The notes below the pieces were generated by a model, which saw nothing but the letters and a program-made list of their open reading frames with translations, did not search any database and was not told the DNA's origin. DNA of 64,000 nucleotides from a virus (taxonomy: Duplodnaviria > Caudoviricetes), in IMG/VR virus record IMGVR_UViG_3300046786_000304, positions 96,001 to 160,000 of that record. One strand, written 5' to 3'. Positions 19,542-20,176 of the stretch are shown here, piece by piece (the first letter of the stretch is position 1; each line of letters begins with the position of its first letter). The position numbers were made by a program, and so were the translations under genes.

Positions 19542-19751
19542 ATGACAACAGAAACAACAACTCCAGTAAACACACAAGAAGAACTTGTTAAACAATTCCA
19601 ATTGTACATTGAAGAAAACGAAAAGTTCACAGGCAAGAAAGTTAAAGCTGCAGCTGGCCGTGCTCGTAAAGCATTGCAAGAAGTTGCTAAACTAGTAAAA
19701 GCCCGTAGAAAAGAAATTACGGAAGAAAAGGCAGCATTGTCAGTTAAATGA
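19542..19751 (+). CDS. Histone H1-like protein, Hc1 family
   Basis: 'EKFTGKKVKAAAGRARKALQEVAKLVKARRKEI' matches the Hc1 'GNKAAA.R.RK....L.K..K..RK' pattern. Confidence 0.7.
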   Translation: MTTETTTPVNTQEELVKQFQLYIEENEKFTGKKVKAAAGRARKALQEVAKLVKARRKEITEEKAALSVK

Positions 19752-20176
19752 CATGGTTGTTCGAAGGAACTTCGGTAGAAACACTTCCTGAGGATTGTGT
19801 TGGTTTTGTTTATCTCATTACCAACACAGTCACAGGCCGCAAATACATAGGCAAAAAATTAGCAAAATTCTCTAAGACAACTTATAAAACAGTAAAACTA
19901 AAAAACGGCACTAAAAAGAAGAAAAAAATTAGAAGCAAAATTGACAGCGACTGGATGGACTATTATGGTTCATCTGATGAATTACTCAAAGACGTACTCA
20001 CACTTGGCAAAGAAAATTTCACCCGCGAAATACTACACTACTGCAAATCTAAGGCCCATACTTCATACCTCGAAGCTAAAGAACAATTCGATAGAAAAGT
20101 TCTTGAATCAACTGATTACTACAATGGCCAAATATCCGTTAGAGTACACGGATCCCATATCATAAACAAAATATAA
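19748..20176 (+). CDS. GIY-YIG nuclease, catalytic domain only
   Basis: GFVYLITN...KYIGKK, YYGSS, REIL...YLE. No C-terminal DNA-binding extension. Confidence 0.85.
   Translation: MTWLFEGTSVETLPEDCVGFVYLITNTVTGRKYIGKKLAKFSKTTYKTVKLKNGTKKKKKIRSKIDSDWMDYYGSSDELLKDVLTLGKENFTREILHYCKSKAHTSYLEAKEQFDRKVLESTDYYNGQISVRVHGSHIINKI

What the first reader, a model, noticed from the sequence alone, without database searches (positions are those of the whole stretch)
19748..20176. Catalytic-domain-only GIY-YIG nuclease with Lys-rich insert: possible RNA-partnered nuclease
Seen: 142 aa with GFVY/KYIG, YYGSS and the conserved Glu, but no C-terminal DNA-recognition module. It carries a very basic insert (KTTYKTVKLKNGTKKKKKIRSK) and ends immediately before the structured region. 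Knowledge: homing GIY-YIG enzymes (I-TevI, Seg) obtain specificity from appended DNA-binding domains. Inference: specificity or activity may be supplied by the adjacent RNA, forming a protein-RNA system, or the enzyme may process that RNA.
Basis: inference. Interest (0 to 1): 0.7.

Follow-up and report, generated by a model that had tools for sequence, protein, structure and literature searches.

The report
Small phage nuclease beside large RNA
An uncultured freshwater T4-like phage encodes a small stand-alone GIY-YIG DNA-cutting enzyme whose gene runs straight into a structured RNA of about 400 bases; the pairing is conserved in this phage group, but most relatives of the enzyme have no such RNA, so an RNA-partnered nuclease remains possible but unproven.

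Summary
ORF 19748-20176 is a 142-aa, catalytic-domain-only GIY-YIG protein: Pfam PF19835 at full length, a confident fold nearest the I-TevI catalytic domain, and a lysine-rich segment that folds as a beta-hairpin. Thirty-three bases after its stop codon begins Rfam RF01718 (Polynucleobacter-1). That motif is only the 5' domain of an RNA of roughly 400 nt (about 20200-20600). Its 3' domain is not in Rfam.

The gene-RNA adjacency is real. It was already noted in 2010 for this gene family (GOS11034/PSSM2_218). About 87% of close homologues carry the RNA, and about 95% of RNA copies follow a small nuclease gene.

Seven cultured-phage homologues have no RNA, and neither does one complete 162-kb phage whose enzyme is 74% identical. 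The RNA almost never leaves one syntenic slot (gp47-gp46-nuclease-RNA-baseplate).

Two results are new. In sister phages an unrelated PD-(D/E)XK nuclease (PF24608) occupies the same slot before the RNA. The RNA also carries two short variable segments that are always identical to each other.

Best reading: an RNA-independent, probably dimeric DNA endonuclease co-transcribed with a separate large ncRNA.

Earlier notes of this scan on the same genome had flagged both the RNA and this gene-RNA pair.

The parts
16733..17752 (+). gp47-like (Mre11/SbcD-type) recombination nuclease subunit, first gene of the syntenic block
   Evidence: ORF. tblastn shows it conserved upstream in related loci.
17762..19537 (+). 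gp46-like (Rad50/SbcC-type) ATPase
   Evidence: Pfam AAA_23 and SMC_N. It lies upstream of the nuclease-RNA pair in 53 of 75 RNA loci; all but one of the rest (L087) have under 3.5 kb of contig upstream.
19542..19751 (+). 69-aa Hc1-like basic protein; its TGA stop overlaps the GIY-YIG ATG (ATGA)
   Evidence: Pfam PF07432 Hc1, E 6e-10. The overlap is read. It is present in only a minority of related loci.
19748..20176 (+). 142-aa stand-alone GIY-YIG nuclease (PF19835 / phrog_447)
19859..19945 (+). Lys-rich beta-hairpin arm (residues about 38-66) of the nuclease
   Evidence: AF2 strands 40-50 and 56-66, block pLDDT about 91. The Pfam profile covers it. It is shorter in the P-SSM2 homologue.
20210..20353 (+). 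5' domain of the RNA = Rfam RF01718 Polynucleobacter-1 motif
   Evidence: 51.3 bits, model positions 1-141 of 141. Covariation in relatives: 87% of cells paired, 15 pairs changed on both sides, 0 of 500 shuffles as high.
20434..20591 (+). conserved 3' domain of the RNA, not in Rfam (anchor GGTAC..AACCGCC at about 20464-20482, hairpin TTTGCCC..GGGCGAA)
   Evidence: My model R2 scores 89.5 bits here. On 98 distinct sequences 91.9% of cells are paired and 0 of 500 shuffles are as high. This domain is shared by RNAs that have different 5' domains.
20522..20534 (+). first copy of the twin variable segment (CCTCTGGCATGTT)
20577..20589 (+). second copy of the twin variable segment (ACCTTGGCATAAT)
   Evidence: The variable positions are identical in both copies in 94-98% of 98 distinct sequences.
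20177..20685 (.). gene-free interval that holds the whole RNA; ORF 20454-20684(-) inside it is probably spurious
   Evidence: The ORF overlaps the conserved RNA 3' domain. Metatranscriptome contigs cover 20071-20570.

Best explanation
The gene encodes a stand-alone GIY-YIG DNA endonuclease of the PF19835 / phrog_447 family. This is a single-copy, strongly conserved gene of cyanophage-type (Kyanoviridae-like) T4 relatives and is distinct from the T4 Seg homing enzymes. It most likely works as a homodimer. In that reading the conserved C-terminal segment (residues about 107-142) forms the dimer interface, and the two lysine-rich beta-hairpins take the place of the missing DNA-binding domain. In this freshwater lineage it is the last gene of the gp47-gp46 recombination-nuclease operon. 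I therefore infer that it cuts DNA, most plausibly branched or recombination intermediates, as T4 EndoVII does, or otherwise host DNA, as T4 EndoII does. I infer that it does not need the RNA. The RNA that follows is a separate large ncRNA gene of unknown function, about 400 nt long, with the Polynucleobacter-1 motif as its 5' domain. It is transcribed as the 3' extension of the same operon and stays in the same syntenic slot. Shown: family, fold, conserved catalytic residues, adjacency, synteny, and presence of the stretch in RNA libraries. Inferred: the dimer, the DNA substrate, the resolvase-like role, and independence from the RNA.
For: Family and fold are established. Stand-alone length is the norm: 2133 cluster representatives match, and the best 150 are mostly 130-165 aa. 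The gene is single-copy with a strong match in P-SSM2, Melnitz, G006, G007, G001 and this virus's own record, whereas T4 has only weak Seg-type matches. The RNA is absent next to homologues in seven cultured phages. It is also absent from the complete genome G001, whose enzyme is 74% identical while its gp46 is only 28% identical. The homodimer prediction scores ipSAE 0.56 (three runs, 0.55-0.59) against a best control of 0.00. That mark was reached by 20 of 30 proteins solved as pairs of one chain and by 1 of 23 solved as single chains. The runs agree in 100% of contacts and the partner's pLDDT is at least 88. In sister phages a Hjc-like PD-(D/E)XK nuclease (PF24608) fills the same slot after gp46. 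Three complete GIY-YIG genomes lack PF24608, with a positive control. Four complete genomes lack EndoVII (PF02945), which is found in T4 as a control. The RNA sits in the same gp46...baseplate context in every contig long enough to judge except two. In 10 of the RNA-first loci, and in 4 of the protein-first loci, one or two ORFs lie between the gene and the RNA.
Against: In most loci the RNA begins within about -4 to +45 nt of the stop codon, which is tighter than synteny alone requires. The slot before the RNA is almost never empty, and two unrelated nuclease families fill it, which also fits a nuclease-RNA module. No substrate was tested. No sequence similarity to any solved resolvase was found. 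In other lineages the family lies near nrd or denV genes rather than gp46. The enzyme's unusually high conservation (70-80% identity where gp46 is about 50%) is not explained.
Confidence: 0.5

Rival explanations
1. The nuclease and the RNA form a functional module. The RNA would be a scaffold or guide for a small dimeric nuclease (GIY-YIG, or PF24608 in sister phages). Alternatively, the nuclease would process the operon transcript to release the RNA.
For: Of 75 RNA copies found from the RNA alone, 70 lie next to one of two unrelated small nuclease genes (67 have GIY-YIG upstream on the same strand, 2 have PF24608 upstream and 1 has it downstream). Ten of 12 PF24608 loci found from the protein alone have the RNA directly downstream. 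In most loci the RNA starts at the stop codon. Metatranscriptome contigs from separate studies bridge the stop codon: X17 record 16 spans 20071-20469 and X16 record 3 spans 19619-20227. The RNA carries two short variable segments that are always identical, which would suit a symmetric partner. A homodimer is predicted. There is a precedent in HEARO RNA next to HNH nuclease genes, which later proved to be the IscB guide RNA (my own knowledge).
Against: The enzyme family is widespread without the RNA, including a 74%-identical copy in a complete genome. ORFs inserted between gene and RNA are tolerated. One RNA copy has no nuclease gene nearby (L092). The pair never moves as a unit to a new context, so conserved synteny explains the adjacency. 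I found no target or complementary partner for the twin segments, either in the RNA or in the flanks. The protein is 142 aa with no recognisable RNA-binding module. GIY-YIG and PD-(D/E)XK enzymes are as a rule DNases.
Confidence: 0.2
2. The gene is a free-standing homing-endonuclease-type selfish gene that sits beside its target. The target would be the highly conserved RNA gene, and the two nuclease families would be successive invaders of the same site.
For: The family profile is named after T4 SegE, and the nearest structure is I-TevI. Homing enzymes target highly conserved sequences close to their own gene (established knowledge). Two nuclease families alternate in one intergenic slot. L231-L234 hold both a divergent GIY-YIG remnant-like match and PF24608. 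The 5' domain of the RNA next to the gene comes in at least three unrelated versions.
Against: There is no DNA-binding domain. The gene is single-copy and present in nearly every member of the group rather than patchy. The protein is under strong constraint, with all catalytic residues kept. Nucleotide identity is only about 70% between lineages, so there is no sign of recent transfer. The family is conserved in hundreds of cyanophages at other loci. No empty slots were seen.
Confidence: 0.1

Closest known systems
I-TevI catalytic domain and T4 Seg endonucleases (GIY-YIG homing enzymes; Pfam PF19835 is named after SegE)
   Same: It has the GIY and YIG motifs, conserved Arg/Glu/Asn residues and the same fold (Z 8.2 to 1LN0). 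It is phage-encoded.
   Different: It has no linker or C-terminal DNA-binding domain. It is 142 aa, against 220-260 aa for the Seg proteins. It is single-copy and conserved rather than sporadic. It adds a basic beta-hairpin between the YIG strand and the first helix. T4's own Seg genes match the profile only weakly.
T4 endonuclease II (DenA), a 136-aa stand-alone GIY-YIG DNase
   Same: It is a stand-alone, oligomeric GIY-YIG enzyme of the same size in a T4-type phage. In Melnitz, C48C1 and BUCT-ZZ01 the homologue lies just after the nrd genes, as denA does in T4 (T4 gene order from my own knowledge).
   Different: There is no detectable sequence similarity, and the structural match is only Z 5.4. 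Orthology is not shown.
Polynucleobacter-1 RNA motif (Rfam RF01718; Weinberg et al. 2010, PMC2864571)
   Same: The window's RNA matches at full length above the gathering score. The paper's supplement states that most examples lie downstream of GOS11034-family genes with possible homology to PSSM2_218. PSSM2_218 is a homologue of this enzyme (38% identity, E 3e-20).
   Different: The paper did not recognise the gene as a GIY-YIG nuclease and found no example in a sequenced phage. Here the motif proves to be one of at least three alternative 5' domains of a roughly 400-nt phage RNA with a shared 3' domain.
OMEGA systems (IscB/IsrB with HEARO omega-RNA; TnpB with its omega-RNA)
   Same: A structured RNA is encoded directly beside a nuclease gene and co-transcribed with it, and the pairing was first seen as an RNA motif associated with a nuclease ORF.
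   Different: Those nucleases are large RuvC/HNH proteins with dedicated RNA-binding parts and are never found without their RNA. They sit in transposons, and the guide matches the flank. Here the nuclease is tiny and usually lacks the RNA, the locus is not mobile, and no guide-target match was found.
Structure-selective nucleases Slx1 (GIY-YIG) and Hjc (PD-(D/E)XK), and T4 EndoVII
   Same: They are dimeric small nucleases that act with recombination machinery. A GIY-YIG enzyme and a Hjc-like enzyme alternate in the slot after gp46/gp47, and EndoVII is absent from four complete genomes.
   Different: The match to Slx1 is weak (Z 3.1). No biochemical evidence exists, so the resolvase role is an inference from context.

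Membership tests
GIY-YIG nuclease superfamily | GIY and YIG beta-strand motifs about 10 residues apart | tested here: met
   GFVY (Y22) and YIG (Y33) are invariant in 42 sequences.
GIY-YIG nuclease superfamily | Conserved catalytic Arg, Glu and Asn after the motifs | tested here: met
   R93, E109 and N126 are invariant. Their equivalence to I-TevI R27/E75/N90 is inferred from order and fold and was not superposed residue by residue.
GIY-YIG nuclease superfamily | Alpha/beta fold of the catalytic domain | tested here: met
   Model pLDDT 92. Z 8.2 to I-TevI, 7.3 to PD-T4-3, 5.6 to UvrC and 5.4 to EndoII.
Pfam PF19835 SegE_GIY-YIG / PHROG 447 | Score above the curated cut-off over the whole profile | tested here: met
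   115 bits against a cut-off of 25, profile positions 1-123 of 123. phrog_447 E 2.5e-38.
Free-standing homing endonuclease (Seg type) | C-terminal DNA-binding module joined by a linker | tested here: not met
   The protein ends 13 residues after the last profile position, and no second domain appears in Pfam or in the model.
Free-standing homing endonuclease (Seg type) | Sporadic presence among close relatives, with empty sites | tested here: not met
   There is one copy in every complete genome examined. Among the 75 RNA loci the slot is filled in all that could be judged except L092.
Free-standing homing endonuclease (Seg type) | Cleaves a site near its own insertion point in genomes that lack the gene | not testable with these tools
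   This needs a cleavage assay or mixed infection.
Rfam RF01718 Polynucleobacter-1 RNA | Covariance-model score at or above the gathering score, full length | tested here: met
   51.3 bits against 37, model positions 1-141 of 141.
Rfam RF01718 Polynucleobacter-1 RNA | Lies downstream of a GOS11034 / PSSM2_218-like gene | tested here: met
   PSSM2_218 is 38% identical to the window's enzyme, E 3e-20.
RNA-guided nuclease of the OMEGA kind | Nuclease family is always accompanied by its RNA | tested here: not met
   Seven cultured phages and the complete genome G001 have the enzyme without the RNA.
RNA-guided nuclease of the OMEGA kind | A variable guide segment that matches a DNA target | tested here: inconclusive
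   Twin variable segments exist. No matching site above chance was found in up to 10 kb of flanks. Host genomes were not searched.
RNA-guided nuclease of the OMEGA kind | Protein binds the RNA | not testable with these tools
   No protein-RNA prediction tool was on hand. This needs a pull-down or AlphaFold3.
T4 endonuclease II (DenA) orthologue | Detectable sequence homology to DenA | tested here: inconclusive
   Neither the sequence nor the profile gave a hit in PDB sequences, which include 2WSH. The structural match is only Z 5.4.
Holliday-junction / branch resolvase | Homodimer | tested here: inconclusive
   The prediction supports a dimer: ipSAE 0.56 against a best control of 0.00. The mark was reached by 20 of 30 solved homo-pairs and 1 of 23 single chains. 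Contacts agree 100% and pLDDT is at least 88. This is a model, not a measurement.
Holliday-junction / branch resolvase | Structure-selective cleavage of four-way or branched DNA | not testable with these tools
   This needs an assay on synthetic junctions.

The most novel reading that the evidence does not exclude
The roughly 400-nt RNA is the programmable partner of a small homodimeric nuclease. Its two repeated modules (GUGAC, a 5-8 nt spacer, AYCU, then a variable core of 7-10 nt) would present two identical guide-like segments in a pseudo-symmetric way, one to each subunit. The nuclease subunit would be exchangeable, either GIY-YIG (PF19835) or PD-(D/E)XK (PF24608). That would be a phage-borne RNA-directed DNA-cutting system built on nuclease folds not known to use guide RNAs.
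Probability: 0.1. Interest if true: 0.9.

Novelty: new variant of a known kind. Interest (0 to 1): 0.55.

Why it matters
The enzyme belongs to a very large phage family with no assigned function. Databases label it 'NAD synthetase', which is a misnomer: it is a GIY-YIG nuclease, present in hundreds of cyanophage genomes as T4-GC 213. The context and dimer evidence here give a concrete hypothesis to test, namely that it is a structure-selective DNA nuclease working with gp46/gp47.

The sixteen-year-old orphan Polynucleobacter-1 motif is placed in phages. It is shown to be part of a much larger RNA and is tied to two unrelated nuclease families in one slot. The last time an orphan RNA motif was found tied to a nuclease ORF (HEARO), it turned out to be a guide RNA, so a cheap pull-down and cleavage test is worth doing even at low prior odds. 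The twin segments that always match each other are a kind of covariation that ordinary base pairing does not explain.

Tried and rejected
- **Alternative RNA 5' domains in Rfam.** A search at E up to 1 of loci with the other 5' domains (groups B and C) found nothing.
- **RNA in cultured phages.** blastn of the RNA against 50,697 phage records found no match.
- **Solved structures by sequence.** Sequence and profile searches of PDB sequences gave no meaningful hit. Foldseek against PDB gave only weak rows led by I-TevI, so I relied on VIA-align.
- **A third strand for the twin segments.** I found no site with a consistent position.
- **Twin segments as guides to a nearby target.** Matches in the flanks are at chance level: 110 seen against roughly 20-85 expected.
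- **Pairing between the two copies.** The RNAalifold helix is poorly supported: one pair is C-A in 47 of 98 sequences.
- **Recent horizontal transfer of the gene.** This was suggested by 74% protein identity where gp46 is 28%. It is rejected because nucleotide identity is only about 70% in all comparisons.
- **Other readings of the twin segments.** I considered hammerhead, k-turn or C/D-box motifs, promoter -10 elements, gene-60-type bypass and the I-TevI CNNNG cleavage motif by eye. None fits all variants.
- **RNA 3' end from metatranscriptomes.** Contigs of four runs stop between 20469 and 20570, and two runs have no cover over 20554-20667. This is at most a weak hint of the 3' end, and DNA carry-over in these libraries is not excluded.
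- **RNAalifold on raw MAFFT alignments of the 3' domain** gave little. Manual curation plus a covariance model was needed.
- **Literature.** Searches found no paper on an RNA-partnered GIY-YIG enzyme or on this RNA beyond Weinberg 2010.

Full report
**What the window is.** The stretch belongs to a 233-kb record of an uncultured freshwater T4-like phage. Around the finding the order is:
- gp47-like gene, 16733-17752;
- gp46-like gene, 17762-19537;
- a 69-aa Hc1-like gene, 19542-19751;
- the GIY-YIG gene, 19748-20176;
- a gene-free interval, 20177-20685;
- then, converging on the minus strand, the gp26/gp51-like baseplate-hub genes.

**The protein.**
- The 142-aa product matches Pfam PF19835 over the whole profile (E 2.8e-33) and PHROG 447. 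The PHROG label 'NAD synthetase' is a misnomer carried into many phage records.
- AlphaFold2 on a 42-sequence alignment gives mean pLDDT 92.
- An exhaustive structural comparison puts the I-TevI catalytic domain first (Z 8.2). Next come the GIY-YIG restriction enzyme PD-T4-3 (7.3), the UvrC N-terminal domain (5.6) and T4 EndoII (5.4).
- Y22, Y33, R93, E109 and N126 are invariant, so the enzyme is very probably active.
It is part of the family profile and is about 11 residues shorter in the P-SSM2 homologue.
- The family has 2133 representatives at 50% identity, and the 150 best are mostly 130-165 aa. 'Catalytic domain only' is therefore the family's normal state.
- A homodimer is predicted through the conserved C-terminal segment. 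The score is ipSAE 0.56 against a best control of 0.00. That mark was reached by 20 of 30 proteins solved as homo-pairs and by 1 of 23 solved as single chains. Contacts agree 100% between runs and pLDDT is at least 88.

**The RNA.**
- Rfam RF01718 (Polynucleobacter-1) matches 20210-20353 at full length with 51.3 bits.
- In relatives the gene-free interval is 400-500 nt. The sequence beyond the motif is conserved.
- A covariance model of this 3' part (R2) scores 89.5 bits at 20434-20591. It finds one copy in each of three complete 345-355-kb genomes.
- On 98 distinct sequences 91.9% of cells pair, 255 cells change on both sides, and 0 of 500 shuffles do as well.
- G-U pairs are frequent on the plus strand, so the structure belongs to the plus-strand transcript.
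- The 5' part comes in at least three versions: the Rfam motif, a 'group B' and a 'group C'. Neither of the last two is in Rfam.
- By eye, the GUUGU segment pairs with ACAAC in the invariant loop, with compensating changes (GUUGA/UCAAC and GUUAC/GUAAC). The hairpin loop UUAGCG pairs with CGCUAA downstream. I read both and did not score them statistically.

**An unexplained feature of the RNA.**
- Two modules about 75 nt apart flank the hairpin UUUGCCC..GGGCAAA.
- Their variable cores are identical to each other in 94-98% of 98 sequences, and all eight combinations of three variable positions occur. These are the strongest mutual-information pairs in the alignment.
- The rule also holds in group C RNAs and in RNAs next to the other nuclease.
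- I found no third strand or target that would account for it.

**Is the gene tied to the RNA?**

Weinberg et al. 2010 (PMC2864571, supplement) already wrote that most Polynucleobacter-1 RNAs lie downstream of GOS11034-family genes possibly related to PSSM2_218. PSSM2_218 is a homologue of this enzyme (38% identity, E 3e-20). I tested the link from both sides.

*Protein first (80 IMG/VR loci at 68-95% identity):*
- 61 carry the RNA 3' domain, four of them about 1.2 kb away behind an inserted ORF.
- 3 carry the group C RNA.
- 3 are cut off inside a group B RNA.
- 10 have no RNA within 2-3 kb.
- 3 are too short to judge.

*RNA first (a 17-mer of the 3' domain):*
- 75 of the 80 loci returned are genuine by the covariance model.
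- 67 of these have the GIY-YIG gene upstream on the same strand. In 57 the gene ends 200-330 nt before the 17-mer, that is, it lies directly upstream of the RNA. In 10 one or two ORFs lie between them.
- 3 have a PF24608 PD-(D/E)XK nuclease instead.
- 3 are cut by contig ends.
- 1 (L116) is a short locus whose upstream ORF resembles the ORFs inserted between gene and RNA in L152.
- 1 (L092) has no nuclease nearby.

*PF24608 first:* 10 of 12 loci have the RNA right after the gene, in the same gp47-gp46...baseplate setting.

**Evidence against a required partnership.**
- Homologues at 38-53% identity in seven cultured phages are followed by the next gene within 0-150 nt and give no RNA hit.
- The complete 162-kb genome G001 has a 74%-identical enzyme but neither RNA domain. 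The same searches did find the RNA in control genomes.
- The RNA sits between gp46 and the baseplate gene in every contig long enough to tell, except L087 and L092. Plain synteny therefore cannot be excluded as the reason for the adjacency.

**Expression.** Contigs from four metatranscriptome studies cover the gp46 end, the GIY-YIG gene and the RNA up to about 20520-20570. Two contigs bridge the stop codon: X17 spans 20071-20469 and X16 spans 19619-20227. This fits co-transcription, but DNA carry-over in these libraries is not excluded.

**Reading.**
- The enzyme is best seen as a self-sufficient, probably dimeric DNA endonuclease that does not need the RNA.
- Four observations suggest, but do not show, a branch-cutting role: it sits after gp46/gp47, a Hjc-like nuclease replaces it in sister phages, PF24608 is absent from three complete GIY-YIG genomes, and EndoVII is absent from four.
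- The nuclease-RNA module remains a live minority reading. The slot before the RNA is almost always a nuclease gene of one of two unrelated folds, the spacing is tight, and the RNA's twin segments would suit a symmetric partner.
- A homing-endonuclease reading is the least likely. There is no DNA-binding domain, the distribution is not patchy, and there is no sign of recent transfer.

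Noticed in passing
window 20177-20685; loci L001-L161: The Rfam Polynucleobacter-1 motif is only the 5' domain of a phage RNA of roughly 400 nt. At least three unrelated 5' domains (the Rfam type, group B and group C) are joined to a shared 3' part. Neither groups B and C nor the 3' domain are in Rfam.
   Followed up: partly
window 20522-20534 and 20577-20589; alignment A7 columns 167-176 and 242-251: Two short variable segments about 75 nt apart in the RNA are identical to each other in 94-98% of 98 distinct sequences, and all combinations of the variable positions occur. 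This is identity covariation, not complementary covariation. No third strand or target was found.
   Followed up: partly
L101:3896-4423(-), L143:338-853(-), L087:8380-8880(+), L228-L238: In sister phages a protein of about 170 aa from Pfam PF24608 (PDDEXK_15, Hjc-like) takes the place of the GIY-YIG gene between gp46 and the RNA. Ten of 12 such loci have the RNA directly downstream.
   Followed up: yes
L231-L234, about 1457-1756 and 2501-2902: These loci hold both a divergent GIY-YIG match (34% identity, partial) and a PF24608 gene that matches only from residue 37. This may be a trace of one nuclease replacing the other.
   Followed up: no
window 20454-20684 (-): The 76-aa ORF with a TTG start lies over the conserved RNA 3' domain. 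Its apparent conservation in relatives follows the RNA, so it is probably not a gene.
   Followed up: partly
L013/L123, L007, L078, L096, L152:6736-8553: In 10 of the RNA-first loci, and in L007, L013/L014 and L078 of the protein-first set, one or two ORFs without Pfam matches (347 and 258 aa in L152) are inserted between the GIY-YIG gene and the RNA.
   Followed up: partly
complete virus records G001, G006, G007, G008: No T4 EndoVII (PF02945) homologue was found in four complete or nearly complete genomes that each carry one PF19835 gene. T4 served as the positive control.
   Followed up: partly
L210, L212, L213, L217, L218 (genome contigs): Contigs binned into bacterial MAGs (Haliscomenobacter, Bacteroidetes, Polynucleobacter) carry the phage GIY-YIG gene and its RNA, so these look like phage contigs mis-binned into bacterial genomes.
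   Followed up: no
window 19542-19751: A 69-aa Hc1-like (histone H1-like) basic protein is translationally coupled to the nuclease gene by an ATGA overlap. It is present in only a minority of related loci.
   Followed up: partly
G006:C1:192703-194781: The gp46 homologue of this complete genome is a 695-aa open frame in which the match to the window's gp46 is split by an extra middle segment.
   Followed up: no
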